From: Slackia heliotrinireducens
GTDB lineage: Bacteria; Actinomycetota; Aquicultoria; DYIV01
Length of the DNA stretch: 42,046 nucleotides
Reading direction: 5' to 3'
Assembly (NCBI GenBank): GCA_020723435.1
Contig: DYIV01000006.1
Coordinates: 2,329-44,374 of the forward strand
Shown here: piece after piece, positions 16,408 to 40,296 of the stretch
Numbering within the stretch: the first letter of the stretch is position 1
Layout: each line of letters starts with the position of its first letter
Translations under genes and position numbers: made by a program
The notes under the pieces: model-generated
Database searches by the model: none
Told to the model about the DNA's origin: nothing
The model's input: the letters and a program-made list of their open reading frames with translations, nothing else

Positions 16408-17997
16408 TTACTCGTTCGGGTGGCAGGTTCGGCACCAAGTCGTCGTAGGCACGACGTCGCGGCTTGCGTGACAGCTTCCAGTAGCGCCCACGCCTCCCGG
16501 CGCGATGTTGGAGCAGGTAGGATGGGCTCGGACGTCTTGCGGCTCGCCGTGGCAACTCCTGCAGTCACTTCCGTAGACGATGTGCACCTGGTCGTACTGT
16601 GCGTGGATGTCGGAGTGGCACGCGGCGCATCGTTTGTTCCAGGGACGGGCCATCTGAGAGACGGGCCCGCCCGCCCTGTGACAGGCGCTGCATCCCAGTC
16701 CCCCCGAACTTGCCTTCGCGTGTTCCTGCGTGAGCTCGAGATAGTGACAGTCCACGCACGCGGCCGAGGCGCCGCCGTCGGGTGAGATGAGCGTGCCCGT
16801 CTCGGTCCCGGCGTGGAGCGCGCCCGCGTCGCCGTGGCCGTCGTGGCAGCCCACGCAGCTCGTCTGCTTGGCGGCGATGGCGTCTCTGACTCGCTCGTCC
16901 GTGCTCGAATGGCAGGTAGAACAGGTCAGAGGCCGGCCGGAGTCATTGGTGTGGCGGTAGTGCTCGATCGTCAAGGTCATGACGTGGCACTCGTCGCATC
17001 CCTCGATGGATGTCCGATGATACGAAGAAGTCGGCGCCGAATGCGCGGCGGGCACGGGCGGGCTGTATCCGCCGTGGCAATACTGGCAGGTGATCGCCGG
17101 GTTGAACGCGAGCTCCTCCGGTCCATGGGGCCCGTACGTCGGAGAAGTCCAACCGCCGCCGACCGGACTGCCCGGGCCATGGCAGGCGTTGCAGTCGTCC
17201 GTGGGATGATTGGGGATGGGGTAGCCCGCATGGCAGTCGGCGCATCCCGTGGTGGTGTCCGGCATATCCGCGTAGATCTGGACCGTGAACGACCAGCTCA
17301 GCGTTGCCGTGCCTCCCGCCGTGTCCGTGGCGTTCGCGGTGACGAGCACGTCGTGACCGTTGGGGAGCGGTGAGGGAACGGAGCCGGCAAGGAGCATTGC
17401 CCCCGCGTCATATGTAGATGGGATCGCCGCTCCGTTGACCTTGATTTCACTGCTCGCGATTGGGCTGGCGCCGGTCAGGCGCACGGAAATCTGGGGCGAC
17501 AGCGTCCCGACCGTCGCTCCCAGGTCCGGTGATGGATTGGAGAGCTCGGGCGGCGTCGCGACGGTGAAAGACCATGAGTACGTCGACTGCTTTCGAGCGT
17601 AGTTGGCGACGGTCACGGCGACGGTGTGCGGCCCGCCCGTCAACGACGGAGCGCACGCGCATGTCAGGAGCGCACGCGTGTAGTCGATCGCCCAGTACTC
17701 GCCTTCATCGTCGGAGAGCAAGGTGCGGTACGGATAGGTGAGACGCGCTCTTGTCCAGTTTCCGTCGATGAGCATCTCGAAGCCGTTGGAGCGCACCTTG
17801 GCCGGATCGTAGATGGCCACGGAGACAACCGGGTTCGACACCGACGAGGCGGAGCCGGGCGAGGGTGTGGCCGCTGAGAAAGTGGCGGGTCCTGCCGCCG
17901 ACGCGGGCAAGGGCGAGGAGCTCACCAGCGCCGCGACCAGCGCCGCAAGACTGAAGATGAAGAGTACTCTGGACCGTTTGCCTCTCGCTCTGGACAC
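16408..17997 (-). CDS. Secreted multiheme cytochrome c (11 CxxCH + one CX13CH) with two N-terminal Ig-like repeats
   Basis: Signal peptide ending ASA, two beta-rich repeats ending WSFTV, 11 counted CxxCH motifs. Confidence 0.9.
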   Translation of the reverse strand: MSRARGKRSRVLFIFSLAALVAALVSSSPLPASAAGPATFSAATPSPGSASSVSNPVVSVAIYDPAKVRSNGFEMLIDGNWTRARLTYPYRTLLSDDEGEYWAIDYTRALLTCACAPSLTGGPHTVAVTVANYARKQSTYSWSFTVATPPELSNPSPDLGATVGTLSPQISVRLTGASPIASSEIKVNGAAIPSTYDAGAMLLAGSVPSPLPNGHDVLVTANATDTAGGTATLSWSFTVQIYADMPDTTTGCADCHAGYPIPNHPTDDCNACHGPGSPVGGGWTSPTYGPHGPEELAFNPAITCQYCHGGYSPPVPAAHSAPTSSYHRTSIEGCDECHVMTLTIEHYRHTNDSGRPLTCSTCHSSTDERVRDAIAAKQTSCVGCHDGHGDAGALHAGTETGTLISPDGGASAACVDCHYLELTQEHAKASSGGLGCSACHRAGGPVSQMARPWNKRCAACHSDIHAQYDQVHIVYGSDCRSCHGEPQDVRAHPTCSNIAPGGVGATGSCHASRDVVPTTTWCRTCHPNE

Positions 17998-27293: not shown

Positions 27294-28025
27294 CTATCCC
27301 GAATCGGTCATCTCCGACGGCTTGACCTGCAATCGCTTGAGCAGGCTGATGCAGGCGACCGCCAGTCCGATCGCCGCCAGCATCCGGTAGAACTGGATCG
27401 GCAGGCCCAAGATCACGGTTGGTGCGGGGTATCCGCTCGTTATCGCTCCCGCGAGCACACCGTACGTGGCCAGGCAGATCGCCGCTGTGAGAGTATCTCG
27501 CGCGCACTCGCGCATGTTGAGCGCCTGGCACCTGCGCGACAGCATGTAGAAGCCGTACCCACCAAGCAGCGCTCCCGGAAGCCCGATGAGGAGCCGGATC
27601 GCGCGCTCCACCGCCGATATCTCCAGAGCCGACGCGCCTTCCGCGTACAAAGAGAGAAGCCCGGCCGCCAGCCCAATCAGTCCGAAGACTCCAAGCGTGA
27701 TCACCGATCGATAGATTCTCGGATCCCGAATCGAGATCGCCAGGCCGAACTGGAGCAGAAGGATGAAGGATGCTGCCAGCAGGGTCAGCCGGATCGCGCC
27801 CAGGGCGCTGCCCGGGGTGGCTTCCACGCCGGGCAGTCGAAGGCCGACGTCGACTACGTCTGACAGACCGTGTACAAAAGCGAACATGCTCAGCAGACGC
27901 AGGTGTGCGGCAACGCCCAGCCGCGCGGTGCGTTCACCGTAGAGCCAGAGGGACACGCCCGTTACGAGCCACGCTCCTCCATACACGGCGTAGACAACAA
28001 GCAAGCCGACCTCGCGGAAACTCAC
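27294..28025 (-). CDS. Stand-alone multi-pass membrane protein resembling a sensor input domain
   Basis: About 7 TM helices with FAFVHGLSD and GLPIQFYR motifs like N-terminal domains of membrane sensor kinases; no output domain. GTGA overlap with the upstream regulator. Confidence 0.6.
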   Translation of the reverse strand: MSFREVGLLVVYAVYGGAWLVTGVSLWLYGERTARLGVAAHLRLLSMFAFVHGLSDVVDVGLRLPGVEATPGSALGAIRLTLLAASFILLLQFGLAISIRDPRIYRSVITLGVFGLIGLAAGLLSLYAEGASALEISAVERAIRLLIGLPGALLGGYGFYMLSRRCQALNMRECARDTLTAAICLATYGVLAGAITSGYPAPTVILGLPIQFYRMLAAIGLAVACISLLKRLQVKPSEMTDSG

Positions 28026-29506
28026 GGTAGCGCTCCTTTCCCTGCCGCCTTTTCAGGCAGGATGTCGAGTTCCGTCAAAAGCATACCATCACTGTCCGAT
28101 ATACGCTGGGCGACGCTGTCGAGTATCTCCGAGACGAACGCCTCTCCAAGACGAGACTTGGCCGATCGGACGACGAGAGAAACATAGTTCTTGGCCTGAT
28201 TCTCGACAGTCTCCTGACTGCCGGCGAATCGACTGGCCACGCTGCGACGGTCGCTGGGATGCCAGAAGTCGGGAAGCGTGGCTTCTGCGGCGGCGAATGA
28301 AACATCTTCGTAGATCAGCGTCACGGTCTTCTCTCCGGCGATAACCTCCACGGATTCCGCAAAAAGGCGCAGACAGTTGGCGATAGCGGTAACAAGGCGC
28401 CGCTTCTTCTCATCCGACCTGACGATCCAGCCGATCGCCCACAGAGGGTAGAGCGTCAGCAGCAGAGAGTGCGAATCGGAGCCCAGCTGCCGCAGCAGAT
28501 CCCGCAACGTGCGGACCCCGTCTATCTCGGCGAGGACTCGCCGCTCGTCTTCGGTCAGATCTATGCCGACGGTCTCGTACTCGTAGCCGGGACGCGTGTC
28601 GAGCACCGCTCCGACCTCCATCGGAATCTGGCTGCGGGCGGCCTCCGGCGGTACGAGGCGGCATCCGCGGAGTATGACCGCCATGTGACCGTCGACCTTT
28701 TCGACCTGATCGTCGGGGACCTCAACGTGCGAGAAGGCGAAGCGGCGATCGGTGGCGGCAAAGGTCTCGCGCAGCGCGACGTCGGTCTTGACACCGGGGA
28801 CCGAAACGAGCCCGGTGAGCGTGCCTTCCTCGAACTGGAATCCAACCTTGCGGTCGTCGGCGAACCCCCACAGTACGCCGGAGCGACGGGCGGCGACGAC
28901 GTTGCGCAGCGTCTCATAGAGCGGGCATTCGTATTGCGGATCGGGCGCACCCGCCGGGACGGCGGTCAACGTGCCCGCCGACGATGCTTGGAGTAGGGCT
29001 GTCACGTGACGTATCTCCGCGTCCAAGAGCGCTCGACGGCGATCGAGCACGAGCACGAGCGACGCATCTCCGGAAACCCGGGCGTCTTCGAGCGTTCTCT
29101 CGAGCAACGATAGCGCCTGCTGCAGCGACGTCAGCCTGGCCAGAATGCGGGAGGTGGCGACGCTCGGCTCGAGCCGGTCGCTGTAGTACAAGGCGATATC
29201 GAAGCTCTGCATGGACTCCGGCAGCTCGCCCAAGGCCACCTCCACCTCAGTGAAGAATTCCCGGCGTCCCTCATCGGTGATCGAGTAGACCGTTCTCTCC
29301 GGCTTTCCTCCGTGCCGCTCGGAGTGTCGGGAGACGAAACCGGCACGGGCGAGACGGTTCAGCGCGTAGTAGACGGACGCCCGTCCCATCTTCACCCAGA
29401 CGCTCATGTATGGACCGCCGAGTTGATCCACCAGTTCGTATCCGTGCATCGGTTCTCGAATGAGCATCCCGAGCAGCATGAGATCGGTCTTTGAAATGCC
29501 CTTCAC
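28022..29506 (-). CDS. PadR-family regulator fused to a DUF4388 (PATAN)-like domain
   Basis: PMHGYEL..SVYYALNRL..YSITDEGR (PadR); LYETLRNVVAARRSGVL..FQFEEG and LTEDERRVLAEIDGVRTL (DUF4388-like). Confidence 0.75.
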   Translation of the reverse strand: MKGISKTDLMLLGMLIREPMHGYELVDQLGGPYMSVWVKMGRASVYYALNRLARAGFVSRHSERHGGKPERTVYSITDEGRREFFTEVEVALGELPESMQSFDIALYYSDRLEPSVATSRILARLTSLQQALSLLERTLEDARVSGDASLVLVLDRRRALLDAEIRHVTALLQASSAGTLTAVPAGAPDPQYECPLYETLRNVVAARRSGVLWGFADDRKVGFQFEEGTLTGLVSVPGVKTDVALRETFAATDRRFAFSHVEVPDDQVEKVDGHMAVILRGCRLVPPEAARSQIPMEVGAVLDTRPGYEYETVGIDLTEDERRVLAEIDGVRTLRDLLRQLGSDSHSLLLTLYPLWAIGWIVRSDEKKRRLVTAIANCLRLFAESVEVIAGEKTVTLIYEDVSFAAAEATLPDFWHPSDRRSVASRFAGSQETVENQAKNYVSLVVRSAKSRLGEAFVSEILDSVAQRISDSDGMLLTELDILPEKAAGKGALP

Positions 29507-29752: not shown

Positions 29753-29783
29753 GGAAACCTTCACAGAAAGACAAGAAAAGGGG

Positions 29784-29812: not shown

Positions 29813-29820
29813 GAGATAGA

Positions 29821-30102: not shown

Positions 30103-31692
30103 ATGAGGTTGCTCAAAGAAAGTAGGAGTGCAATGGTGCTGTTTGTGGCCGCTGTTCTCGTTTTCGTTCTGGGCCTGGCGACGACGGCACTTGCCGTAGC
30201 GCCACAGACGTACAACGAGGCCGATCCGGCTTTCGGCCGCTCAGCATGGACCTATAAGGACCTCCAGGATACGGATGCGAAGTACGAAGGTAGCTACGCC
30301 GTCTTCGACGACACGTCTACCGCGATGTACAACAATCCGCACGGTGGTTACGACACCGGCACGAACCAGTGCAAGGTGTGCCATGCGGTCCACCGCGCCA
30401 ACGGCGCGTACTATCTCTTGCGTGCCGATTCGCAGGACGACGCATGCTCCTACTGCCACATCGGAGGTTCCGCTCACTCGGACAAGGTTGTCTACGACGC
30501 GAACCCGGATGGCATCTATACGACGAACGGCCATACGATAGGTGCTCAGACGCAGATCCCGGATTCGTCGGAGAGCCAGGAGGCCACCGCGGTCACCCTG
30601 TCGACGACGGACGCCAACGGCGATCCGCTTGAAGAGACCATCCACGTTCGTAGTTACGAGACGGCCAAGAACGAGATGTACAGGTTCGGTCGTCACCACA
30701 GCCAGAGCCCGGTATCTACGGGACGCAGTGGCTATGCCAAGATCGGACCGCTGGCTCTTCGTTGCATGAACTGCCACCAGCCGCACAACGCGACGGAGTT
30801 GGTCTGGAAGCCGCGTGACTTCACGCCGTTCACCAGCGCCAACTACAGCACGGCCACCGACGGCGCCTTCAGGACATCGAGCTACAAGCTCCTGCGGCGT
30901 TATCCGTCCGCGTCCACCTACGGCTCGATCAACAGCTACGGCTACTGGGATGACGTGCAGGCCATCAAGGTCATCGAAGACAGCGCGACTGCCGGGCTGA
31001 ACTTCAGCCAGGAGATGTCCGCCGAGTCGACCTACACGGAGAACGGCGTTACGCGGCGTCAGCCGCTGTGGATTGCCCAGGATATCCACAAGCCCGATCC
31101 GGATTCGGAGAGTGGCATCTATCGCTACCCGAACAAGGTCAACAACATGGCGTTGTCATGGTGGTGTGCTGACTGTCACAACCTGAACGTTGGTGGCTGG
31201 GAGCCGCTGACCGACCCCGAGCTCGGCTTCAAGGCTCACACCGAGCGGACCCACCCGGCACCGTACTACGGCGCCTACACGGGTCCCGGCCAGTGCTACA
31301 GCTGCCACCGCAACGACCTGTCGCCGCAGATGGGCCTGACGGCTGCCACCAACCCGGATCGTTCCTCGGGTTACGCCGCGGGTCACACTGTCGGCGGTGT
31401 TGTCAGCGCGACGGCTATCACGGGATCGTCCCGGAACGGGTGCACCCAGTGCCACTACGGAACCGGCGACTACTATCGTGAGCGCGTGAATGGCGGCGGC
31501 GTACCTGTCGTCGAGTCCGACTTCCCGCACTCCGGCGGTACTGAGGATATCAAGATGCTGGGTAACTACAGCGCGTCGGTCGCAAGCGCAACCGCGAGCT
31601 ACGCGCCGACCTACAGCCAGACCACCGTCACCGAGAATAATCTCGATGCAGTGTGCCTGCGCTGTCATCCCGGCGTCGGTATCCACATCTAG
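30103..31692 (+). CDS. Secreted heptaheme cytochrome c with OmcS-like motif order (candidate major subunit)
   Basis: AAAGGAGGTG SD and signal peptide ending ALA. CKVCH, CSYCH, CMNCH, CADCH, CYSCH, CTQCH, CLRCH. Confidence 0.9.
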   Translation: MRLLKESRSAMVLFVAAVLVFVLGLATTALAVAPQTYNEADPAFGRSAWTYKDLQDTDAKYEGSYAVFDDTSTAMYNNPHGGYDTGTNQCKVCHAVHRANGAYYLLRADSQDDACSYCHIGGSAHSDKVVYDANPDGIYTTNGHTIGAQTQIPDSSESQEATAVTLSTTDANGDPLEETIHVRSYETAKNEMYRFGRHHSQSPVSTGRSGYAKIGPLALRCMNCHQPHNATELVWKPRDFTPFTSANYSTATDGAFRTSSYKLLRRYPSASTYGSINSYGYWDDVQAIKVIEDSATAGLNFSQEMSAESTYTENGVTRRQPLWIAQDIHKPDPDSESGIYRYPNKVNNMALSWWCADCHNLNVGGWEPLTDPELGFKAHTERTHPAPYYGAYTGPGQCYSCHRNDLSPQMGLTAATNPDRSSGYAAGHTVGGVVSATAITGSSRNGCTQCHYGTGDYYRERVNGGGVPVVESDFPHSGGTEDIKMLGNYSASVASATASYAPTYSQTTVTENNLDAVCLRCHPGVGIHI

Positions 31693-31745
31693 TCGCGAGT
31701 TAGAGGAGCGAAGAGCTTATCGACTCGCACTGAGAGCATGAGAGG

Positions 31746-31779
31746 TGAGCCCCCGCCCTAGGGCGGGGGCTCATTCTTG
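31746..31779 (+). terminator. Strong hairpin / intrinsic terminator
   Basis: Perfect 28-bp palindrome TGAGCCCCCGCCCTAGGGCGGGGGCTCA followed by TTCTT. Confidence 0.8.
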
Positions 31780-31864
31780 GAAGGTCGCCGGCCGGTTGCG
31801 CCTGTCGGCCGCATCGGTAGGCGCATCGGCGAGTTGACCGACGAATGGGCCGATCCACCAAGAT

Positions 31865-31881
31865 CTGGCATATGGGTTGCT
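31865..31881 (+). promoter_or_regulatory. Sigma54-type -24/-12 promoter
   Basis: CTGGCATATGGGTTGCT (GG-N10-GC), ~65 bp before GTG 31947. Confidence 0.6.
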
Positions 31882-31946
31882 ATATATCTGTACTGGGCAG
31901 ATGGGTACCTCAACCGGAAGAAAGCTAGCGAAGGGAGGCGAACCGG

Positions 31947-32666
31947 GTGGCCAGCACGGGGCAATCGCCTGAGTTCGTCGATCATGCTCGGGCCGTGACT
32001 CACGTCACAACCGGCTACGCTGAAGCGGAGTCGCGCGCCGAGCCCCATAAGGCACGGCTGCTGTTTCGAGCTCTTCTGGTCACCGCGCTTCTCGCCCTAA
32101 GCCTCGCCGTCGTCGTCAATTGGCTCGCCGTTCCCTGGGACTGGGGTTCCGGACAATTACGCGTCTCCGTTCCGGCGCCCGACGGACGCGTGCCGCCTCC
32201 GGGCATCAAGACGGCCGTCAACGAGCTACCGGGCGCGATTCCCGGGTTCGAGAACATCACGAGGCAGGCAGTTCCCGGCCAGGGTGGCCGTGCCGTCGAG
32301 GCGCTGTATGTGACTCTGAACATGAACCTCGAGATCCAAGTGCCGATAGCCGTCTACGTACGGGCCGAGGGGTTCCCCTCCGGCGCCCTCGCCCGGCGGC
32401 GGGCGACTGAGATCGCGGGACCCTTCCCGGTTGGCGCCTCAAGCGTTCGGGTCGGGAAGACGGCCGTCGGCAGGGCGGGTTACAGCTCCGATCGAGGCGC
32501 CTACACCATTACGTGGACCCGAGGTCAACACGTCTTCTTCGTCAAGAGCACGTTTCGCGACAAGGCCCCGGCACAAAAGCGAGATTTCCTCAGAGTTCAG
32601 GCTCGTCCGGTGGCAGACGCCATCGAGGCGTATCAGCGCTCCGGCAAACGGAGCATCAAGCTCTAG
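31947..32666 (+). CDS. Membrane-anchored hypothetical protein
   Basis: GGGAGG SD, single TM, extracellular domain. Confidence 0.7.
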   Translation: MASTGQSPEFVDHARAVTHVTTGYAEAESRAEPHKARLLFRALLVTALLALSLAVVVNWLAVPWDWGSGQLRVSVPAPDGRVPPPGIKTAVNELPGAIPGFENITRQAVPGQGGRAVEALYVTLNMNLEIQVPIAVYVRAEGFPSGALARRRATEIAGPFPVGASSVRVGKTAVGRAGYSSDRGAYTITWTRGQHVFFVKSTFRDKAPAQKRDFLRVQARPVADAIEAYQRSGKRSIKL

Positions 32667-32690
32667 GGCGAGAAGCCCAAAGGAGTAATC

Positions 32691-33716
32691 GTGCCGCAAA
32701 CCGGCGACAAGAATCGCCTGCGCAGCAGAATGGATCGCTACAGGCTCGACACGGAGCGGGTTTGGTACCTTGCCCTGTCTGTAGTCTGCTTTGTGCTGAT
32801 CGTGGCCGGCGCCGTATCCGCAGCCGCGGTGAGCCCGCGTTTCTGCGCGGCGTGTCATGACCGCGAGACGGACGCCCTGACAAAGTCGGCCCACAAGACC
32901 ATCGCGTGCGATCGATGTCACACGGCGCCGAGCCTGGCGGGGGTGGTCGACAGCAGGCTCGCGGTGGTCGGCATGATACCGGCCCAGCTCGTCGCCGGCA
33001 GCGGCCCCGCGCCGACGGTCATCGACAACGACCGTTGCGTGGCGTGTCACAAAGAGGTGCTCACGGCCACGACCACGTCGAAGGGGCTGCGCATGAACCA
33101 CCGCGCGCTGTATGAGAAGAAGTGGTCATGCACGCGCTGTCACCCGCGAACGGCGCATCCGTCCTCACGAGCTCCCGTTCTCGGCTACTCGATGGACGTC
33201 TGCATGGAGTGCCATACGCCTACGACGGCGGATCTGACCGCCTGCGACATGTGCCACGTCGGCAAGTACCCCTCGGTTCGGCAGCAGGCGGGCGCGACGA
33301 CACCGTGGGGCATCACGCACGGCCCCAACTGGCGCAAGACGCACGGCATGGGCAACTTGAACACCTGCGCCGCCTGCCACCAGGATGGGTACTGCGCCAC
33401 ATGCCACAAGATAGACATGCCGCACCCGGCGAACTTCCCGTCCGAGCACGGGAAGGTCGTCCTCAGCCGGGAGAGCGGAACGGAGGACTGCTTCGTTTGT
33501 CACAAGCGAACGACGTGTGACAATTGCCACGGCATCGAAATGCCGCATCCTACCGGATTCATAAAGACGCACTCCAAGACCGTTGGACGCATGGGCCAGG
33601 CGGTTTGCGAGCGATGTCACGCCGAATCATCCTGCCTGGACTGCCATGCGACCCACATCCATCCCGGGCTGCTGCCCGAAGTCATAAAGAAGCTACGAGC
33701 GAGGCCGGCCACATGA
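32691..33716 (+). CDS. Membrane-anchored dodecaheme cytochrome c with NapC/NirT-like N-terminus
   Basis: TM helix then FCAACH..SAH..CDRCH; 12 CxxCH counted; MPHP repeats. Confidence 0.88.
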   Translation: MPQTGDKNRLRSRMDRYRLDTERVWYLALSVVCFVLIVAGAVSAAAVSPRFCAACHDRETDALTKSAHKTIACDRCHTAPSLAGVVDSRLAVVGMIPAQLVAGSGPAPTVIDNDRCVACHKEVLTATTTSKGLRMNHRALYEKKWSCTRCHPRTAHPSSRAPVLGYSMDVCMECHTPTTADLTACDMCHVGKYPSVRQQAGATTPWGITHGPNWRKTHGMGNLNTCAACHQDGYCATCHKIDMPHPANFPSEHGKVVLSRESGTEDCFVCHKRTTCDNCHGIEMPHPTGFIKTHSKTVGRMGQAVCERCHAESSCLDCHATHIHPGLLPEVIKKLRARPAT

Positions 33717-34933
33717 GGCTGCAAGACTACATAAACTCGGCTCGCACCTGGCTCACCGGCGGCGATCCGGCACGCAATCTCATCACGATTCTGGTGATCG
33801 TACTGGTGGTCACCGCAGTCATCGCCGGCGTCGTCTACTTCGTTCACGTCACGACGCCGAAAGGACGGATCGAAGCGCTGTTGCGCAGCAGGGCGCAGGA
33901 GCAGGCCCGCGGTCCGGCATGGCTCGTGAGGCTACTGGCGATACTGCTCTTCATCCTGGCCTTCGCGGGCATCGGCTATTACATGGACAGACCGGAAGGA
34001 TGCAACCAGTGCCATGGGAATGCCTGGTCGAAATCGCTGTCCAGATCGCCTCACAAGGATGTCTCCTGCATGGACTGTCACGGCTCGCGGGGGATAACCG
34101 GGCCGGCGCGCGATCTGGTGGCGTACGCTCGGTGGGTAACCGTCTACACGGCCGCCCGCGAGGTCGTCAAGCCTCGAGGCGTGGGCATCTACGAGGGCGC
34201 GTGCCTCGATTGCCACCCTGAGGTCCGCACCTCGACTCGCGTCCGAAACGGAATCCGCGTGCGACACAAGGACTTCCTGGTCAGCGGCGTTACCTGCGCC
34301 GATTGCCACAACATGACGTCCCATCCCGACGAGGTTGCCGAACCGACCAAGCCAAGCATGAGCGGGTGTCTGATCTGTCACAACGGCGATCGCGCGTCGG
34401 CCGAGTGCGAGACGTGCCACGTTCGGGATCCCGCGCTGCAGTCGGTGCCTCGCGGGTTCGCCAAGGTCCATATGAGCTCCGAGCAGCAGAAAGGGGCCTG
34501 CTTCAAATGCCACAACCCGGCGCCCTGCACGGCCTGCCACGGACTGCGCATGCCGCATCCCCCTAACTGGGTGGCAAAGGGCGGCGTCGATCAGAGAAAC
34601 AGGCACGCCCGGGAAGCCTTCGTCGACCGGCAGGTCTGCTGGCGCTGCCACTACAAGGGAACGGACGTGTTTTCAGCCAACCCGGACGCGTGCAAGCCCT
34701 GCCACGAACCCGGCATGGACACAAAGATGCACGGAGGCTCGGTGTGGATACAGGAGCACGGGCCGGAGGCAACGGGTAAGAGGACAGGAGTCTTCGCGGC
34801 CTGCTTCGACTGCCATTCAGCGACGCTGTGCGATCAGTGTCATCCGGCGTCGTACCGGAAGCTGTACAAGCCGAGAACGGGTCCGGACCAGTACCAGCGG
34901 GCCGTGCCGCTCGACCCGAGTCTGGTCCCGTAG
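33713..34933 (+). CDS. Membrane-anchored dodecaheme cytochrome c (two N-terminal TMs), paralog of the upstream gene
   Basis: ATGA overlap at 33713-16; 12 CxxCH counted; CNQCH..SPH..CMDCH NapC-like start. Confidence 0.88.
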   Translation: MRLQDYINSARTWLTGGDPARNLITILVIVLVVTAVIAGVVYFVHVTTPKGRIEALLRSRAQEQARGPAWLVRLLAILLFILAFAGIGYYMDRPEGCNQCHGNAWSKSLSRSPHKDVSCMDCHGSRGITGPARDLVAYARWVTVYTAAREVVKPRGVGIYEGACLDCHPEVRTSTRVRNGIRVRHKDFLVSGVTCADCHNMTSHPDEVAEPTKPSMSGCLICHNGDRASAECETCHVRDPALQSVPRGFAKVHMSSEQQKGACFKCHNPAPCTACHGLRMPHPPNWVAKGGVDQRNRHAREAFVDRQVCWRCHYKGTDVFSANPDACKPCHEPGMDTKMHGGSVWIQEHGPEATGKRTGVFAACFDCHSATLCDQCHPASYRKLYKPRTGPDQYQRAVPLDPSLVP

Positions 34934-34954
34934 TTCGCGGAAGAAGGAGAGAAG

Positions 34955-35356
34955 ATGCGCAAGGTCATTACAGCACTGATAGTTGTCGCCCTGCTGGCGG
35001 CGGTCACCATCGTGGCGCTGTTGTTCAGCTCTCGGGGGCCAACGTCGACGCAAGTGATCAAGGACGCCAAGACGATACCGAAGAGCGCCATGGCGTTCGT
35101 CCGCAATCCATACAAAGACGACTACGGGATGAGCCGCGTATCGGGTTACGTGCAGAACCGGTCCGGCACGAAGATCGTGAACGCGCGCCTGGACATTCAG
35201 CTATCCGATTCGGCCGGCAACAAGAAGGAGCTCATCAAGTATCAGGTCAAGGACATACGTCCGTACTCCAGAAAGAGCTTCGACGCCAACGCGGGGCCCC
35301 TCGGCGGGGCTCGACGCGCCGACGTGAAGATAGTTGAGATCGAGGTGGCCAAGTGA
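34955..35356 (+). CDS. Membrane-anchored FxLYD-like domain protein
   Basis: TM helix then VSGYVQN..IQLSDSAGN pattern. AAGGAG SD. Confidence 0.6.
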   Translation: MRKVITALIVVALLAAVTIVALLFSSRGPTSTQVIKDAKTIPKSAMAFVRNPYKDDYGMSRVSGYVQNRSGTKIVNARLDIQLSDSAGNKKELIKYQVKDIRPYSRKSFDANAGPLGGARRADVKIVEIEVAK

Positions 35357-35946
35357 TGGTCCGTACTCGCCAACGTCCAGGCAGCGCAGACCGAAGCGGC
35401 CACACGTGGCTTCTCGTGCGGCGCCTACTGGCGGCGGCCGTGGTGATCGTGCTCGCGGCGGGTTGGGCCGCGTTGCCCGGCTGCGCCGGGGACTCCCGTC
35501 AGGTGACCATCGTCAAGCCGGGGCAGGAGAAGCGCGCGGGCTTGACTCCGCTGGAGCGAGGCCGGATTCGAGGAGAGGTGCTGCAGGTGGTCAGACCCGC
35601 CATCAAGGCGTGGCGGGCGGGCGATATCACGGCGATGAAGCGGTACTTCTCCGCCGAGCTGGTGACCTACAACGCCAAGGTCAAAGCGGACTACGCGCGT
35701 GAGGGCAAGGTCCGGGTGCGCGCTCACACCAATGTCGGCATGGACGTTGTCGAGTTGACGCCCGACGGCCGCGAGGCCTCGGTTCAGTACACCTTCAGGA
35801 ATCGGTCCTACTTCGCCGCGAAGAGCACGAGGCGCGCTCTGACGAAGCCCACCGACGAGGATGGCGAGATAGACATGATCCTGAAGCGCACCAACGAGGG
35901 TTGGACCATAACGCGCATGTTCAGTGGTAGGGATGAGCTGCTGTGA
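35356..35946 (+). CDS. Hypothetical exported protein / possible lipoprotein
   Basis: Hydrophobic signal ending LPGC; coupled to the upstream stop codon. Confidence 0.6.
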   Translation: MVRTRQRPGSADRSGHTWLLVRRLLAAAVVIVLAAGWAALPGCAGDSRQVTIVKPGQEKRAGLTPLERGRIRGEVLQVVRPAIKAWRAGDITAMKRYFSAELVTYNAKVKADYAREGKVRVRAHTNVGMDVVELTPDGREASVQYTFRNRSYFAAKSTRRALTKPTDEDGEIDMILKRTNEGWTITRMFSGRDELL

Positions 35947-35957
35947 TCGTAGGTAAC

Positions 35958-35974
35958 TTGGCATTTGTATTGCT
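35958..35974 (+). promoter_or_regulatory. Sigma54-type -24/-12 promoter
   Basis: TTGGCATTTGTATTGCT (GG-N10-GC) in the gap before the TPR gene. Confidence 0.6.
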
Positions 35975-36049
35975 CCATTCAGTGTGTTGCGGGACAACGC
36001 GGCACCGATCCGATTTGGAAGTCTCAAGAGCCCAGGGGGTTGTCCGTTG

Positions 36050-36766
36050 ATGCTGGAAAAAGCCGTTCCATATCTGAAGGTCGCCATCGTTCTTCTCGTC
36101 GTGGCGTTGCTCGTGCTGGCAGCCGGTCTCGTTCGCTACGTGCTGCTGGGAGGTTCGGGGGCCGGCGCGCCCAGATCCGAGCTGGAGCGGGCGGTCTTCG
36201 CCGCTGAGGAGGCGGTTCGGGCCAATCCACAGGACGCCGGGGCGCGGGTGAAGCTCGCTGCGGCCTATCTGGAGCAGAATAGCGTCAGCTCGGCTATCGA
36301 GCAGGCTGAGTTCGCCATCAGGCTCGCGCCGAAGGATCCTAGCGGCTACTACGTGCTGGGCCTGGCTCAGTCCGAGTCCGGCGATCTGAAGGCCGCCGCC
36401 GGCAACCTGACGAAGTCCGCGAGGCTCAAGGGCCAGCTCGGCGACTTCTACGCGGACGTATACGCCGCGCTTGCCACCGTTCAGGAGAAGGATGGCGATC
36501 TGAAGGGCGCCATCAAGACGATGGGCAAGGCCCTCGACCAGGCGCCGGAGAACGCGGTCTATCTCACGACTCGCGGCCGCATGCACGAAGACGCGCGCGA
36601 GTGGGTGTGGGCGCTTGATGACTACCTTTCAGCGCTTCAGTACGTGCCGGACTACGAGCCTGCCGGCGATGCCTACAACCGCCTGGCTCGCGAGCATCCG
36701 GAGGCGCTCGAGAAGCTCAAAGAGATGGAGAAGGCAAGCCAGAAAGCCCAGACGAAGAGCAAGTAG
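36050..36766 (+). CDS. Membrane-anchored TPR protein
   Basis: TM helix, then 34-aa periodic repeats (ARVKLAAAY, GYYVLGLAQ, VYAALATVQ, YLTTRGRMH). Confidence 0.85.
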   Translation: MLEKAVPYLKVAIVLLVVALLVLAAGLVRYVLLGGSGAGAPRSELERAVFAAEEAVRANPQDAGARVKLAAAYLEQNSVSSAIEQAEFAIRLAPKDPSGYYVLGLAQSESGDLKAAAGNLTKSARLKGQLGDFYADVYAALATVQEKDGDLKGAIKTMGKALDQAPENAVYLTTRGRMHEDAREWVWALDDYLSALQYVPDYEPAGDAYNRLAREHPEALEKLKEMEKASQKAQTKSK

Positions 36767-36780
36767 CTTAGGAGGTCACC

Positions 36781-38235
36781 TTGTCACCAAGCAGCGAAGC
36801 AACCAGACGCACGGCGGTCAGATATCTGGCTGTCGCCATCGCCCTTCTCCTTTTAGTTCTGATTCTGGGCATCTTCTACTATCTGCTCACGCGCCCGCCC
36901 GAGCTCAAGGAGAGCGGGGCCAAGGATCGCAACTTCCTCTTTTCGATATACGGTTTCCAAGGCGACTTGTTACGTAGACCGACCGGGGTCGGCCTGGACG
37001 CAAAGGGCAACATCTACGTTGCCGACACCGGCAAGAAGCGCATCGTCATCTTCGATCGGGAGGGCAACTACGTCGCGACCTACGGCGAATTCGGCAAGAA
37101 GCCGCTGGAGCTGTGGGATCCGATAGACGTCGCCGTCGCGGCGGACGGACGAAGCTATGTGCTCGACAAGACTCAGAAGAAGATTGTCGTCTACGACTCG
37201 GCTCGCCGGCCGATTCACGTCATCACCTTTCCTGAGGCGCCGCTGTCGGTCGAAGTCTCCGGCGACAAGCTGTTCGTTACGACGGTCAGCGGCGTGCTCA
37301 TCGGCGACCTGAGAGGCAATCTGCTGACCGGCTACATCGCCCGGGGCAAGAAGACCGGGCAGTTCGACCTTCCCGGCGCGCTGGCGGTGGGCAAGGACGG
37401 AACCCTCTACGTCGCCGACTCTCTCAACTATAGGGTCCAGGCGATCGGGACGAACGGGAAGCCCAAGTGGGCCTATGGCAAGCCGTTGCCGCCCAAAACG
37501 GCGGTGATGTATCGAGGTGGCGACCGCAAGTTCGGCCTGCCGGCCAGCATCGCGCAGGACGACAACGGAAACCTCTACGTCGTCGACGGCCTCAACAGCG
37601 AAATCGTCGTTCTCGATTCGGATGGCGAGTTCATCGAGAAGATGGGCACGCAAGGGCACGGCGACGGCGAATTCTACTATCCGGAAGGTATCACCTATGG
37701 CGACGGTCGCCTCGTCGTGGCCGACAAGTTCAACGACCGTGTGGAGGTCTTCTCGGTACCGATCCTCGGCGGTCCGCGCTACACGGCGTATCTGCCGCTC
37801 GCACTGCTGTTGCTCCTGCTGCCGCTGCTGCTCTTCCTGCTGCGGCGCCGGGTGCGCTACGTGGCGACGTCGGCCTTTGTCGGCATGCTTGCCGCCGACG
37901 AGAACGCGGAACTCGTCGCCGACGCACTGAAGAAGGTCAACGTCTCGCCGGCGCTGGCGGAGCGCGCGAGCGGGCTGGAGAACGTCGAGCTGTCCTGGCT
38001 CAGCCGAGACATACCCTCCGATCGCGTGAGCGATCTTGTTGAGCAGTATCGCCTCGAGCAGGAAGACGCCGAGGCTCTGGCCGTGGCGCTCGGGCTGGGC
38101 GGCAGGAAGGTCCTGCTGACCGAGACCGAGGACGTCAGGCAGGCCGCCGTCGACCTGGAGGTTCCGACGCTGAGTTACGAGGAACTGATCGACACCCTGC
38201 GGTCGCCCGAAACCGAAGGCGAGGCGGCGGGATGA
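36781..38235 (+). CDS. NHL-repeat beta-propeller protein with second TM and degenerate PIN-like C-terminus
   Basis: Repeats PxG..D..GNIYVADT, GQFDLPG, GEFYYPEGI, VADKFNDRV; Leu-rich TM followed by RRR. Confidence 0.85.
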   Translation: MSPSSEATRRTAVRYLAVAIALLLLVLILGIFYYLLTRPPELKESGAKDRNFLFSIYGFQGDLLRRPTGVGLDAKGNIYVADTGKKRIVIFDREGNYVATYGEFGKKPLELWDPIDVAVAADGRSYVLDKTQKKIVVYDSARRPIHVITFPEAPLSVEVSGDKLFVTTVSGVLIGDLRGNLLTGYIARGKKTGQFDLPGALAVGKDGTLYVADSLNYRVQAIGTNGKPKWAYGKPLPPKTAVMYRGGDRKFGLPASIAQDDNGNLYVVDGLNSEIVVLDSDGEFIEKMGTQGHGDGEFYYPEGITYGDGRLVVADKFNDRVEVFSVPILGGPRYTAYLPLALLLLLLPLLLFLLRRRVRYVATSAFVGMLAADENAELVADALKKVNVSPALAERASGLENVELSWLSRDIPSDRVSDLVEQYRLEQEDAEALAVALGLGGRKVLLTETEDVRQAAVDLEVPTLSYEELIDTLRSPETEGEAAG

Positions 38236-38777
38236 GAAAGACGCCGAAGACTCTCGCCGTGGCGATAGTCGTCTCGACCCTGGGCATCCTGGCGCTGGTC
38301 GCCGGATGCTCGGGGTCGCGCGTTCCCGATCCGGAAGGGATCCCCGAGCAGACGCGCAGCGCGTCGGTCTTCTTCTCAACCGGCCGCTCGCTGTTCGAGG
38401 AGAGACGGCTCGTGGACGCGAAGGATGTGTACGGCCAGACGCTCGCGGAGCTTCTGGAGGCGCACCCGGTCACCAATCCCGATGTCGCCATCGTCCAGCC
38501 TGCGGCCAAGGTTCGCTCGGTCAAGCTGGACCGCGGGGTGCTCACCATCGACTGGGACAGAGACGTTCTGAAGTTCGAGGCGGAGCCGAAGGAGAAAGTG
38601 TTGGCGCTCGCCGCGATCCTCAGGACATTCGGCCAGTTTCCAGAGGTGAAGAAGGTTCGCTTCACAGTGGAAGGTAAGACAGACGGCAAACTCGATGGTT
38701 CGGACGTACAAGTCTTCTGGGGTCGAGTCAGCCTGCGCGGTCAGCCCTGGGACGTGCTGCGGCCCTCGACAAAGTAG
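38232..38777 (+). CDS. GerMN-domain lipoprotein
   Basis: Lipobox VAGC; AILRTFGQFPEVKKVRFTVEG is typical of GerMN. Confidence 0.8.
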   Translation: MRKTPKTLAVAIVVSTLGILALVAGCSGSRVPDPEGIPEQTRSASVFFSTGRSLFEERRLVDAKDVYGQTLAELLEAHPVTNPDVAIVQPAAKVRSVKLDRGVLTIDWDRDVLKFEAEPKEKVLALAAILRTFGQFPEVKKVRFTVEGKTDGKLDGSDVQVFWGRVSLRGQPWDVLRPSTK

Positions 38778-38790
38778 CCGTGGCCGTTCA

Positions 38791-40296
38791 GTGAGGACGA
38801 GGACCCCTCGGCTGCGGCGGCCGACGTGTTGTGCCGCGCTCGGTCTGATCTTCGCGGTCGTCATCTCATGGTGCGCGGCGGCTGTCGCCTCGGCGGCACC
38901 GCCTTCCGTCGTCGACGAGTCCGCTCCGGCCTACGGCCGGTCGGCATGGACCTACAAGGACATCCGCGACATCTCGTTCAAGTACGAAGGCGGCTACGCG
39001 CGCTTCGACGACACGTCGACGGCCACGTACGAGACCGATCCCCACGGCGGCTATGACACGGCGACGAACCAGTGCAAGGTCTGCCACGCTGTTCATCGCG
39101 CAGGCGGCTCCTACTCGTTGATGCGCGCCGACTCCGAAAGCGACGCCTGCGTCTACTGCCACGTCGGCGGCTCGGCGCACTCCGCCAAGACCGTCTACGA
39201 CGCCAACCCCGGTGGGATGAACACCTCGGTGGGGCACGCGATCGGCTCCACCGCTGTCGTCCCAGACTCCTCGGTCGAAGAGACCCTCGACGTGCTGGAA
39301 GTTCCGAGCGTGGACGCCTCGGGCAATCCTGCGACCGAGACGGTCTACGCCAGACGAGCCGATCCTTCCCAGAACCGCATATTCCGCCTCAGCCGGCGCC
39401 ATTCGCAGGGTCCTCCCGGCGATCTCTCCAGCGGCTACCTTCGAGTGGGGCCGACGGCGCTAACGTGCCTGTCCTGTCACCAGCCGCACAACTCTCCCGA
39501 CATCTCCTGGCGGCCGATGTCCTTCCCGGGCGACGCCACTCGGACGGCGTCCGGCTACAAGCTGCTTCGAGCCAGTCCCTCCGGCTCGATATGGGGTCCC
39601 GACGACATGCCCTACGGCGGCGGGGGTCCCTCTACGGTCTCCTACACGACTGACGGGATGAAGGGCCTGAAGGCCTATGCCGACTTCGCGACCACCGGAT
39701 ATGTGAACGCGCCCAACGTCATCCGCTCGCCGGAGACGACGCTCACGCCCGAGACCCACGGTCCCGGCAAGACGATCTGGACATCTCCCGACTGGGGCCA
39801 CAGCGAGACCTCGACGCCGGGCCCGGCCAGGGACCCCGCGGCCGTCAATCAGTACGCGCTGTCGGTGTGGTGTGCCGACTGCCACAATCTCGCCGTCGGG
39901 TACTGGCGCGAGGGAGAGATCGCCGATTTGGCCGAGCCGGCGCACGAGACATCCAGGACGCACCCCGCGCCGTTCGTGGGTGCCAACAATGGTCCGGGGC
40001 AGTGCTACAGTTGCCACCGGGCCGGGCTCAGTCCCGAGCCTGCCGACGCCGCGTATGATTCGGGCAGCGTCCAGTGCGAGAAGTGCCACTACGGAACGGG
40101 GTCCTACGCCGTCGACCCCGAGCGGACCTCTGCGTCAGGCGCCGACTTTCCACATTCGGCCGAGACGAGCGGGACGAAGATGCTCGGCGCTTGGGCGATT
40201 GGCGCTTCCGGCTCAGTCGAGCCCACGCAGATCACCCAGTCGAACCTCGATCTGGTCTGCTTGCGCTGCCACAAGCAGGGGAGCAAGACGCACTAG
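38791..40296 (+). CDS. Secreted heptaheme cytochrome c, paralog of 30103..31692
   Basis: 7 CxxCH; shares GRSAWTYKD, PHGGYDTxTNQCKVCHAVHRA, GPGQCYSCHR, DFPHS and NLDxVCLRCH with the first copy. Start uncertain. Confidence 0.88.
   Translation: MRTRTPRLRRPTCCAALGLIFAVVISWCAAAVASAAPPSVVDESAPAYGRSAWTYKDIRDISFKYEGGYARFDDTSTATYETDPHGGYDTATNQCKVCHAVHRAGGSYSLMRADSESDACVYCHVGGSAHSAKTVYDANPGGMNTSVGHAIGSTAVVPDSSVEETLDVLEVPSVDASGNPATETVYARRADPSQNRIFRLSRRHSQGPPGDLSSGYLRVGPTALTCLSCHQPHNSPDISWRPMSFPGDATRTASGYKLLRASPSGSIWGPDDMPYGGGGPSTVSYTTDGMKGLKAYADFATTGYVNAPNVIRSPETTLTPETHGPGKTIWTSPDWGHSETSTPGPARDPAAVNQYALSVWCADCHNLAVGYWREGEIADLAEPAHETSRTHPAPFVGANNGPGQCYSCHRAGLSPEPADAAYDSGSVQCEKCHYGTGSYAVDPERTSASGADFPHSAETSGTKMLGAWAIGASGSVEPTQITQSNLDLVCLRCHKQGSKTH

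What the first reader, a model, noticed from the sequence alone, without database searches (positions are those of the whole stretch)
30103..40296. Candidate OmcS-like cytochrome nanowire / extracellular electron transfer system in a monoderm-type bacterium
Seen: ten co-oriented genes with 38 CxxCH motifs. Two secreted heptahemes bracket two membrane dodecahemes and TPR, NHL-propeller, GerMN, FxLYD-like and two unknown exported proteins. The heptahemes follow the order PH..CxxCHxxH - LL - CxxCH - GH - CxxCHxPH - Y(K/R)LL - SxWCxxCH - HP. Known (from memory): Geobacter OmcS has this motif order, polymerises into conductive filaments, and is encoded near a paralog (OmcT) and NHL/TPR companion genes. 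Inference: this is a complete quinol-to-filament pathway in which cell-wall-type proteins (GerMN, FxLYD) stand in for outer-membrane parts, since no beta-barrel is recognisable. Whether it has been described in this lineage cannot be checked here.
Basis: partly seen in the sequence, partly recalled or inferred. Interest (0 to 1): 0.9.

Follow-up and report, generated by a model that had tools for sequence, protein, structure and literature searches.

The report
Conserved actinobacterial multiheme electron-export gene cluster
Ten neighbouring genes of an uncultured subsurface actinobacterium carry 38 haem-binding sites plus conserved wall-side helper proteins, most likely a route for respiratory electrons to leave a cell that has no outer membrane; whether its seven-haem proteins form OmcS-like wires could not be tested.

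Summary
Ten co-oriented genes (30103-40296) carry 7+12+12+7 = 38 CxxCH motifs, alongside TPR, NHL, GerMN and FxLYD proteins and two proteins of unknown family. The gene set is conserved: 7 of 12 related loci and 4 of 4 further same-class loci hold it. The usual order is TPR-NHL-GerMN-heptahaem | hairpin | g2-dodecahaem-dodecahaem. The genome has no Omp85, 32 ORFs with three or more CxxCH, haem-attachment genes and a futalosine-pathway menaquinone gene. An extracellular electron-transfer conduit of a monoderm cell is therefore well supported. The "OmcS-like" label is not supported. The proteins have seven haems, not six. Neither phmmer nor a 98-sequence profile finds OmcS among solved structures at E<=10. 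Fold similarity and polymerisation stay untested, because structure prediction failed and was then closed, and complex prediction never ran. One point favours an abundant structural subunit: the heptahaem gene g1 has a strong ribosome-binding site and a terminator-like hairpin behind it, and that hairpin recurs in 13 of 14 related loci. MHC-rich uncultured Actinobacteria were already proposed as iron reducers. This specific module was not found in my literature searches.

The parts
30103..31692 (+). g1, a secreted heptahaem c-type cytochrome (529 aa) with a Sec-type signal peptide and a strong RBS (AAGGAGG 10 bases upstream)
   Evidence: 7 CxxCH. PF09699 Paired_CXXCH_1 scores 40.7 bits against a cut-off of 20.6. 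Non-motif His H80, H97, H144, H228, H379, H384 and H476 are conserved in >=98% of 98 sequences, and H199 in 90%.
31747..31772 (+). GC-rich stem-loop followed by ATTCTTGG, a terminator-like element just after g1
   Evidence: Sequence. Flagged by the terminator scan. Folding energy -32 kcal/mol against -22.7 +/- 3.1 for 25 random 200-nt windows, none as strong. A comparable hairpin follows the heptahaem gene in 9 of 10 and 4 of 4 related loci.
31947..32666 (+). g2, a membrane-anchored protein of unknown family (239 aa) with one N-terminal TM segment and a roughly 170-aa outside domain
   Evidence: No Pfam or NCBIfam hit. TM-like segment 36-65. Conserved directly after the heptahaem gene. Alignment A3. 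Its profile finds nothing in the PDB at E<=10.
32691..33716 (+). g3, a membrane-anchored dodecahaem cytochrome (341 aa) with an N-terminal NapC/NirT/NrfH-like tetrahaem module and 8 further haems
   Evidence: 12 CxxCH. TIGR03153 NrfH covers model positions 6-138 of 138 at E 1.4e-8, but at 34.9 bits it is far under the 134.2 cut-off. Among the 104 homologues listed, many carry a precomputed PF03264 hit, one is named NapC/NirT family cytochrome c by its source, and five are named nitrate/TMAO reductase-like tetrahaem cytochrome c subunit.
33713..34933 (+). g4, a second dodecahaem (406 aa from ATG 33713) with two N-terminal TM segments; paralogue of g3
   Evidence: 12 CxxCH. 27% identity to g3, E 2e-23. 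NrfH model 8-138 of 138 at E 9.6e-9, sub-threshold. TM-like segments 18-49 and 65-92.
34955..35356 (+). g5, an N-terminally anchored FxLYD-domain protein (133 aa)
   Evidence: NF038353 scores 27.9 bits against a cut-off of 23. TM-like segment 1-29.
35353..35946 (+). g6, a probable lipoprotein (197 aa) with a conserved Cys after the signal sequence and a weak NTF2/SnoaL-like signal
   Evidence: SnoaL_2 at 18.8 bits and Tim44 at 14.9 bits, both under their cut-offs. Alignment A2 places a Cys at the end of the signal sequence in 5 of 6 rows.
35984..36766 (+). g7, a membrane-anchored TPR protein (260 aa)
   Evidence: TPR_17, TPR_2, TPR_14 and TPR_11 all pass their cut-offs. A weak, sub-threshold likeness to the CcmH/CycH TPR domain (PF23914, 25.3 bits against 42) also appears. 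TM-like segment 22-60.
36781..38235 (+). g8, an NHL beta-propeller between two TM segments, followed by a conserved cytoplasmic tail of about 125 aa with no known family
   Evidence: PF01436 scores 87.1 bits. TM-like segments 9-40 and 333-359. The tail alone gives no Pfam hit. Homologues align over the full length.
38232..38777 (+). g9, a GerMN-domain lipoprotein (181 aa, LVAGC lipobox)
   Evidence: PF10646 scores 51.1 bits against a cut-off of 23. N-terminus.
38791..40296 (+). g10, the second secreted heptahaem and a paralogue of g1 (ORF opens at 38695; probable start GTG 38791)
   Evidence: 7 CxxCH. 44% identity to g1. Alternative start. Longer end branch than g1 (1.66 against 0.34) in a poorly resolved 13-row tree from which one row was dropped.
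27294..29506 (-). Divergent pair: a PadR-like regulator with a long C-terminal extension (28022-29506) and a 243-aa membrane protein (27294-28025); candidate local regulator
   Evidence: PF03551 PadR scores 55.4 bits. Both genes lie beside the cluster in L002 and L011, 2 of the 12 loci L001-L012 searched.
16408..17997 (-). A secreted 11-haem cytochrome with a non-haem N-terminal part of about 230 aa; possibly part of the same system
   Evidence: 11 CxxCH. Sequence. Homologues lie next to the heptahaem gene in L007 and L003.

Best explanation
This is a dedicated extracellular electron-transfer (EET) module of a monoderm, uncultured actinobacterium. Two membrane-anchored dodecahaems (g3, g4) each begin with a NapC/NirT/NrfH-type tetrahaem module. 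They take electrons from the menaquinol pool at the outer face of the membrane and pass them along their 12-haem chains. Secreted heptahaems (g1, made in excess from its own transcript, and g10) carry the electrons through and beyond the cell wall to insoluble or high-molecular-weight acceptors such as Fe(III) minerals. The TPR protein, the NHL propeller (which also has a cytoplasmic tail), the GerMN lipoprotein, the FxLYD protein, g2 and g6 all face outward. I take them to be the scaffold or assembly platform that positions or matures the heptahaem in the wall. Shown: gene content, haem counts, family assignments, predicted topology, conservation of the gene set, and genome context. Inferred: quinol oxidation, the direction of electron flow, the role of the accessory proteins, and the form the heptahaems take in the wall (single molecules, short stacks or long polymers). 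I put polymerisation at about 0.25-0.3.
For: 38 CxxCH sit in four genes, with no catalytic-type haem motif (CxxCK, CxxxCH or CxxxxCH) found. The seven haems of the heptahaem family can all be bis-His: beyond the seven motif His, seven further His are >=98% conserved. g3 and g4 align over the whole NrfH model including the anchor helix, and many g3 homologues carry PF03264. Every gene product has a signal peptide, a lipobox or an N-terminal anchor. The gene set is conserved in 7 of 12 related loci and in 4 of 4 further same-class loci. The best NHL match lies within 6 kb of a heptahaem match in 7 of 8 genomes. The same genome has further TPR-NHL-cytochrome-dodecahaem modules on contigs C149 and C131, and 32 ORFs with >=3 CxxCH. 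Four Cytochrom_C_asm matches pass the cut-off. MqnA-family PF02621 scores 246.7 bits, and a MenA-like match scores 101.2 bits, just under its cut-off. No Omp85 was found. g1 has a strong RBS and a terminator-like hairpin that recurs in 13 of 14 related loci. Relatives of g1 exist in which its first five-haem part is fused to 14-35-haem chains. Literature, passages read: MHC-rich deep-branching Actinobacteria are predicted iron reducers (PMC5520028). A Coriobacteriales MAG with 37 MHCs was abundant on an anode (PMC7399161). A cultured Anaerosomatales isolate with 17 MHCs is an obligate Fe(III) reducer, while a second isolate with 18 does not use Fe(III) (PMC9686372).
Against: There is no experiment and no expression data for this lineage. 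The NrfH and NapC matches are far below the curated cut-offs, so quinol oxidation is only a superfamily-level inference. No hematite-binding motif is present in g1 or g10. Nothing fixes the direction of electron flow. The accessory proteins have no demonstrated function in any cytochrome system. The family is patchy even within its class: 14 of 48 genomes, or 10 of 31 high-quality ones. No structural model could be obtained, so haem-chain geometry is unknown.
Confidence: 0.55

Rival explanations
1. g1, with or without g10, polymerises head to tail into a conductive cytochrome filament like OmcS or OmcE. TPR-NHL-GerMN is the monoderm counterpart of the propeller and barrel assembly machinery of Geobacter.
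For: g1 is monocistronic, with a strong RBS and a conserved terminator-like hairpin, as expected for a major structural subunit. It has no cell-wall anchor or sorting motif at its C-terminus. Mature g1 and g10 have about 71 and 67 residues per haem, against 407/6 = 68 for OmcS residues 26-432 (PMC6584659). There are several paralogues per genome. Beta-propeller proteins accompany filament and outer-surface cytochromes in diderms: OmcE clusters always hold two beta-propeller lipoproteins (PMC13712944), and NHL propellers sit beside outer cytochromes of D. ferrophilus (PMC5815863). The best PDB match of the paired-CxxCH region, though not significant, is 7tfs_A (E 0.22 and 0.44). That chain is a 232-residue tetrahaem which I recall to be the OmcE filament entry.
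Against: There are seven haems, not six. No sequence or profile match to OmcS was found at E<=10. Two weak hexahaem relatives also find nothing in the PDB. The His count (7 motif His, 7 conserved at >=98% and H199 at 90%, so 14-15 for 7 haems) neither requires nor excludes a ligand from a neighbouring subunit. Relatives reach 14-35 haems by fusion, which is an alternative way to gain length. No structural or oligomer model was obtained.
Confidence: 0.25
2. The same conduit runs inward. It takes electrons up from Fe(II), reduced minerals, cathodes or partner cells into the quinone pool, giving lithotrophic electron uptake.
For: Multihaem conduits are reversible in principle. NHL-propeller plus cytochrome clusters were linked to electron uptake in D. 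ferrophilus (PMC5815863, passages). The relatives all come from uncultured MAGs.
Against: Nothing in the cluster indicates direction. Cultured actinobacterial relatives with MHCs are described as Fe(III) reducers (PMC9686372). A related MAG was enriched on an anode (PMC7399161).
Confidence: 0.12
3. The cluster encodes a respiratory system for a soluble or wall-permeant substrate (for example nitrogen or sulfur oxyanions, or humics), with the heptahaems acting as ordinary electron carriers or reductases outside the membrane.
For: NrfH/NapC-type anchors normally feed soluble reductases. Weak sub-threshold hits to NrfB, NrfH and DmsE models occur in g1 and g10.
Against: No catalytic subunit (NrfA, molybdopterin or other) lies in the cluster. 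No CxxCK or other special haem motif is present. 24 haems in the anchors plus 14 in the secreted proteins is far more than a soluble reductase chain needs.
Confidence: 0.05

Closest known systems
Geobacter sulfurreducens OmcS nanowire and its osc (omcS-companion) operon
   Same: A secreted multihaem with about 70 residues per haem, paralogues nearby, and a set of non-cytochrome companion genes proposed to act in folding, secretion and morphology (PMC13194489, passages). All-His ligation is possible in both.
   Different: OmcS has six haems and a neighbour-donated His (PMC6584659), whereas this protein has seven. No sequence or profile similarity was detected. The host here lacks Omp85, so no outer-membrane porin step can exist. 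The primary paper on the osc operon (Shen et al. 2025) is not held, so its gene-by-gene content was not compared.
OmcE nanowire gene cluster of Desulfuromonadia
   Same: The minimal cluster holds two multihaem cytochromes, two beta-propeller lipoproteins and the secreted filament subunit (PMC13712944, passages). That parallels the two dodecahaems, the NHL propeller with the GerMN lipoprotein, and the heptahaem here.
   Different: OmcE is a tetrahaem of 232 residues, and its cluster always holds a large beta-barrel protein. No barrel is present here. The similarity to 7tfs_A is not significant (E 0.22 and 0.44).
Multihaem EET chains of Gram-positive bacteria (Thermincola potens OcwA and others; Carboxydothermus ferrireducens quinol-oxidising multihaems)
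   Same: The logic is the same: a membrane quinol-oxidising multihaem hands electrons to wall and surface multihaems in a monoderm envelope (as summarised in PMC9686372, passages).
   Different: No solved structure of those proteins appears in the PDB searches with g1 or its profile. The TPR-NHL-GerMN-FxLYD accessory set is not mentioned in the passages I read. Direct sequence comparison with CwcA or the other Thermincola proteins was not done.
NHL-propeller plus outer cytochrome clusters of Desulfovibrio ferrophilus IS5
   Same: NHL-repeat beta-propellers are co-expressed with extracellular multihaem cytochromes and are proposed to stabilise the complex (PMC5815863, passages).
   Different: That host is a diderm, and the system was linked to electron uptake. 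Homology of its cytochromes to g1 was not tested.
MHC-rich uncultured Actinobacteria and Anaerosomatales isolates
   Same: Deep-branching, neutrophilic, subsurface Actinobacteria with many MHCs, predicted or shown to reduce Fe(III) (PMC5520028, PMC7399161, PMC9686372; passages).
   Different: In the passages I read, those papers do not describe this heptahaem family or the TPR-NHL-GerMN module. The 'OmcS homologue' of the Coriobacteriales MAG has six CxxCH and 28% identity to OmcS, so it is probably a different protein.

Membership tests
OmcS family (hexahaem nanowire cytochrome) | Six CxxCH motifs | tested here: not met
   g1 and g10 have seven each. 97-100% of the 98 aligned family members keep the Cys and His of all seven motifs. 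OmcS has six (PMC6584659).
OmcS family (hexahaem nanowire cytochrome) | Detectable sequence homology to OmcS | tested here: not met
   phmmer with g1 gives 0 PDB hits at E<=10. The 98-sequence profile gives 13 hits at E<=10 and none is OmcS. The N-terminal piece gives 4 hits and none is OmcS.
OmcS family (hexahaem nanowire cytochrome) | OmcS-like fold with one linear haem chain that ends at opposite poles | not testable with these tools
The Atlas model of homologue P0065 has pLDDT 0.34 and is useless.
OmcS family (hexahaem nanowire cytochrome) | Head-to-tail polymer with a His donated to a haem of the next subunit | not testable with these tools
   The complex job never ran. The His count is compatible with either case.
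NapC/NirT/NrfH membrane quinol dehydrogenases (g3, g4) | N-terminal anchor helix followed by a tetrahaem module that matches the family model | tested here: inconclusive
   TIGR03153 is covered almost end to end (6-138 and 8-138 of 138) at E about 1e-8, but at 35 bits against a cut-off of 134. PF03264 gives E 0.022 in g4. PF03264 is precomputed in many g3 homologues.
NapC/NirT/NrfH membrane quinol dehydrogenases (g3, g4) | Oxidises menaquinol | not testable with these tools
   Only context is available: menaquinone (futalosine-pathway) gene PF02621 at 246.7 bits in the genome.
Paired_CXXCH_1 (PF09699 / TIGR01905) cytochromes | Doubled CxxCH domain above the curated cut-off | tested here: met
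   g1 scores 40.7 bits and g10 34.3 bits against 20.6. TIGR01905 scores 33.8 and 31.6 against 25.2.
NHL-repeat beta-propeller | NHL repeats above the cut-off | tested here: met
   PF01436 scores 87.1 bits with 4 stretches. PDB NHL domains match down to E 2.5e-36.
GerMN domain | PF10646 above the cut-off | tested here: met
   51.1 bits against 23.
FxLYD domain | NF038353 above the cut-off | tested here: met
   27.9 bits against 23.
Porin-cytochrome / outer-membrane conduits (Mtr, Pcc) | A beta-barrel partner and an outer membrane | tested here: not met
   No barrel family appears in the ten proteins. No Omp85 was found in the 94%-complete genome, while 7 of 14 control genomes give a match.

The most novel reading that the evidence does not exclude
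The heptahaem g1 is the subunit of a cytochrome nanowire of a new fold family, the first in a monoderm bacterium. It is assembled and anchored through the cell wall by a TPR / NHL-propeller / GerMN-lipoprotein platform. That platform would be the outer-membrane-free counterpart of the propeller-and-barrel machinery in OmcS and OmcE clusters. g10 would serve as a minor subunit (base or tip).
Probability: 0.22. Interest if true: 0.9.

Novelty: new variant of a known kind. Interest (0 to 1): 0.6.

Why it matters
How cells without an outer membrane move respiratory electrons across a thick wall is known from only a few Firmicutes. For Actinomycetota it rests on genome counts of multihaem cytochromes. 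This cluster gives a defined, conserved and testable parts list for that step in a lineage of subsurface and groundwater actinobacteria: two quinol-side dodecahaems, one abundant secreted heptahaem, and six outward-facing helpers. It also shows that beta-propeller and TPR companions accompany secreted cytochromes even where no outer membrane exists. That bears on the open question of how cytochrome filaments and surface cytochromes are assembled. If the heptahaem polymerises, it would extend cytochrome nanowires to monoderm bacteria with a new subunit family.

Tried and rejected

There is no verdict.

ESM Atlas: the search by features returned only generic doubled-CxxCH clusters. It was closed for g2. 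The stored model of homologue P0065 is too poor to use, at pLDDT 0.34.

Transitive route to OmcS through weak hexahaem relatives P0251 and P0212: no PDB hits.

Profile of g2 against the PDB: nothing at E<=10.

Rfam scan of 29400-32000: only a chance-level hit.

Sequencing runs: no RNA holder listed, so nothing can be said about expression.

Tree of heptahaems: poorly resolved, one row was dropped for my faulty extraction, and it was not used beyond branch lengths.

Shen et al. 2025 on the osc machinery is not held, and supplements are closed. Gene-level comparison with the OmcS companion genes therefore rests on a secondary summary.

Hematite-binding motif: none in g1 or g10.

Literature searches for prior description found general MHC-in-Actinobacteria papers. 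No paper held 'Aquicultor' together with 'cytochrome'. No paper held three of Geothermincolia, Aquicultoria, multiheme and extracellular electron transfer. One meta-analysis held nanowire, multiheme and Coriobacteriia together.

Full report
OBSERVATION. The window holds ten co-oriented + strand ORFs from 30103 to 40296. Per ORF, CxxCH occurs 7, 0, 12, 12, 0, 0, 0, 0, 0 and 7 times, which sums to 38. Across the other frames and the rest of the 42-kb window there is one stray motif and one further cytochrome gene with 11 motifs on the - strand, so the clustering is not chance. Gene spacing is operon-like, with three 4-base overlaps and gaps of 14-37 bases. The exception is a 254-base gap after the first gene. 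NHL scores 87.1 bits, GerMN 51.1 bits, several TPR models pass, and FxLYD scores 27.9 bits against a cut-off of 23. g2 has no family hit, and g6 has only sub-threshold SnoaL/NTF2-like signals. The heptahaems g1 and g10 are paralogues, 44% identical over 502 aligned positions. The dodecahaems g3 and g4 are also paralogues, 27% identical with E 2e-23. The listed start of g10 overlaps g9, and GTG 38791 gives a normal signal peptide.

ANATOMY. Every product is predicted to face the outside of the membrane (read by eye using charge distribution).
- g1 and g10 have cleavable signal peptides and no C-terminal anchor.
- g6 and g9 carry a lipobox-like Cys.
- g2, g3, g5 and g7 have one N-terminal anchor helix, and g4 has two.
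- g8 has an NHL propeller between two helices and a conserved cytoplasmic tail of about 125 residues that matches no family.
- g3 and g4 start with a module that aligns to almost the whole NrfH model, anchor helix included. The score is only about 35 bits against a curated cut-off of 134. Many g3 homologues carry a precomputed NapC/NirT hit, or are named that way by their source.
- In an alignment of g1 with 97 relatives, all seven CxxCH motifs and seven further His (H80, H97, H144, H228, H379, H384, H476) are >=98% conserved, and H199 is 90% conserved. All seven haems can therefore be bis-His.
- No CxxCK or other special haem motif occurs.

A TRANSCRIPTIONAL DETAIL. g1 has the best ribosome-binding site of the cluster. 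It is followed at 31747-31772 by a perfect GC-rich stem-loop with a T-rich tail. Its folding energy is -32 kcal/mol, and it exceeded all 25 random 200-nt windows of the window. The same test held in each of five related loci. A comparable hairpin follows the heptahaem gene in 9 of 10 loci and in 4 of 4 loci. No random control was run for those last four. After g10 there is no strong hairpin. I infer that g1 is transcribed on its own and in excess.

CONSERVATION. Relatives of g1 number 201 in the word-indexed search, with the best 120 listed. Among cluster representatives there are 319 at E<=1e-3 and 72 at E<=1e-30. All named ones come from uncultured MAGs labelled Actinomycetota, Thermoleophilia, Coriobacteriia, Rubrobacteridae and, in some rows, Firmicutes/Bacillota or Clostridiales. 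Twelve loci from nine assemblies were fetched, and seven of them hold most or all of the other cluster genes. L008 holds all ten. The other five are lone paralogues or sit at contig ends. Four further loci from same-class genomes all show one order: NrfH-like multihaems, TPR, NHL, GerMN, heptahaem, g2, dodecahaem, dodecahaem, g5 and g6 (present in L013 and L014, not matched in L015 and L016), and, except in L016, which ends at a contig end, a second TPR-NHL pair. The window is a permuted version of that order in which the heptahaem is duplicated: g1 leads and g10 keeps the place after GerMN. In 7 of 8 genomes the best NHL match lies within 6 kb of a heptahaem match. In a sample of 401 genomes of the phylum the heptahaem was found in 9, all of one class, and in none of the 372 genomes from other classes. 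Within that class it occurs in 14 of 48 genomes, or 10 of 31 high-quality ones. One same-class genome has its match at the same contig coordinates as locus L005, whose record is titled Candidatus Aquicultor primus. I take the class to be the one that holds Aquicultor, as a taxon-level inference only.

GENOME CONTEXT. The genome is 2.32 Mb in 151 contigs and 94% complete.
- It has 32 ORFs with three or more CxxCH.
- Four cytochrome-assembly matches pass the cut-off.
- A futalosine-pathway menaquinone gene scores 246.7 bits, and a MenA-like match sits just under its cut-off.
- There is no Omp85, although 7 of 14 control genomes give a match.
- The genome holds two further modules of the same design. 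Contig C149 carries dodecahaems, a 14-haem protein, TPR, NHL, and two short hexahaems that share g1's N-terminal SPHG..CKVCHAVH and C-terminal LDxVCLxCH signatures. Contig C131 carries an NHL protein with 20-, 12- and 7-haem proteins.
- A divergent PadR-like gene and a 243-aa membrane protein upstream of g1 recur beside the cluster in 2 of the 12 loci L001-L012.
- Homologues of the window's 11-haem secreted cytochrome sit next to the heptahaem in two loci.

IS IT OmcS-LIKE? By sequence, no. phmmer with g1 finds nothing among 177,635 distinct PDB sequences at E<=10. The 98-sequence profile finds 13 weak hits, led by reaction-centre cytochromes at E 0.017, and OmcS is not among them. The N-terminal paired-CxxCH piece finds four weak hits, again without OmcS. 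The best non-significant hit of that piece is 7tfs_A (E 0.44; E 0.22 with the profile). That chain is a 232-residue tetrahaem, which I recall to be the OmcE filament. OmcS has six haems, residues 26-432, and twelve His ligands of which one comes from the neighbouring subunit (Filman 2019, PMC6584659, passages). The proteins here have seven haems. Fold similarity and polymerisation were the decisive tests and could not be run. The complex job never started. The Atlas model of a homologue is unusable.

MECHANISM. My best reading (confidence 0.55) is an outward electron-transfer conduit of a monoderm cell. Menaquinol is oxidised by the NapC/NirT/NrfH-like heads of g3 and g4. Electrons run along their 12-haem chains and pass to the secreted heptahaems, of which g1 is the abundant one. 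From there they move through the wall to insoluble acceptors. The outward-facing TPR, NHL, GerMN, FxLYD, g2 and g6 proteins form the platform that positions or matures the heptahaem. The NHL protein's cytoplasmic tail may couple this platform to the cell interior. Gene content, topology, conservation and context are shown. Quinol oxidation, direction of flow and the helper roles are inferred. Relatives in which g1's first five-haem part is fused to chains of 14-35 haems show that this module heads long haem wires. Length can thus come from fusion as well as from polymerisation. I rate polymerisation of g1 at about 0.25. It is favoured by the pilin-like expression signals, the lack of an anchor, the paralogues, and the parallel with propeller-containing OmcE and D. 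ferrophilus clusters (PMC13712944, PMC5815863; passages). It is not favoured by any sequence similarity. Inward electron uptake (0.12) and a soluble-substrate respiratory chain (0.05) are the other rivals.

COMPARISON AND NOVELTY. The general idea is in print. Deep-branching subsurface Actinobacteria rich in MHCs were predicted to reduce iron (PMC5520028, passages). A Coriobacteriales MAG with 37 MHCs and one six-haem 'OmcS homologue' was abundant on an anode (PMC7399161, passages). Of two Anaerosomatales isolates with 17-18 MHCs, one is an obligate Fe(III) reducer (PMC9686372, passages). In the passages returned by my term searches of these papers I saw no mention of this heptahaem family or of a TPR-NHL-GerMN-FxLYD module; 'NHL' occurs in none of the three. 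A survey of OmcS homologues does not mention Actinobacteria or Gram-positives: both terms have 0 occurrences in PMC10954620. My ten literature searches found no description of this module. Subscription papers, supplements and Shen et al. 2025 were not visible. I therefore file it as a new variant of a known kind, namely multihaem EET conduits of monoderm bacteria, with an open and more novel nanowire reading.

Noticed in passing
window 16408-17997 (-): A secreted 11-haem cytochrome (529 aa) has a non-haem N-terminal part of about 230 residues. Its homologues lie directly beside the heptahaem gene in L007 and L003, so it may belong to the same system although it sits 12 kb away here.
   Followed up: partly
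own genome contigs C149 (about 1156-20842) and C131 (about 7494-14222): There are two further modules of the same design: TPR, NHL, secreted 6-7-haem cytochromes with the same N- and C-terminal signatures as g1, and NrfH-like dodecahaems. No GerMN match was found in them at the threshold used.
   Followed up: partly
window 27294-29506 (-): A PadR-like regulator has an unusually long C-terminal extension (494 aa) and is paired with a 243-aa multi-pass membrane protein of no known family. The pair is divergent from g1 and recurs beside the cluster in L002 and L011.
   Followed up: partly
window 18074-24523 (-): Two HlyD-like adaptor proteins and a double ABC-2 transporter set (two ATPases, two permeases) lie next to the 11-haem cytochrome gene. 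Whether they are linked to cytochrome export is unknown.
   Followed up: no
L010 9305-11448: In one MAG a third heptahaem paralogue is split into two ORFs (395 and 319 aa, with 3 and 4 CxxCH). This is either a frameshifted copy or an assembly error.
   Followed up: no
proteins P0121, P0123, P0124, P0125, P0133, P0134: Relatives exist in which the first roughly 400 residues of the heptahaem (five haems) are followed by long haem-rich extensions, giving 14 to 35 CxxCH in total.
   Followed up: partly
window 357-4594 (+): A Wzz/GNVR chain-length-determinant protein fused to a ParA-like ATPase lies beside a DUF4012 protein. These are envelope polysaccharide genes with no evident link to the cluster.
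   Followed up: no
window 35984-36766 (+): The TPR protein gives weak, sub-threshold matches to the TPR domains of the cytochrome c biogenesis proteins CcmH/CycH and NrfG. This is a lead for a role in handling apo- or holo-cytochrome.
   Followed up: no
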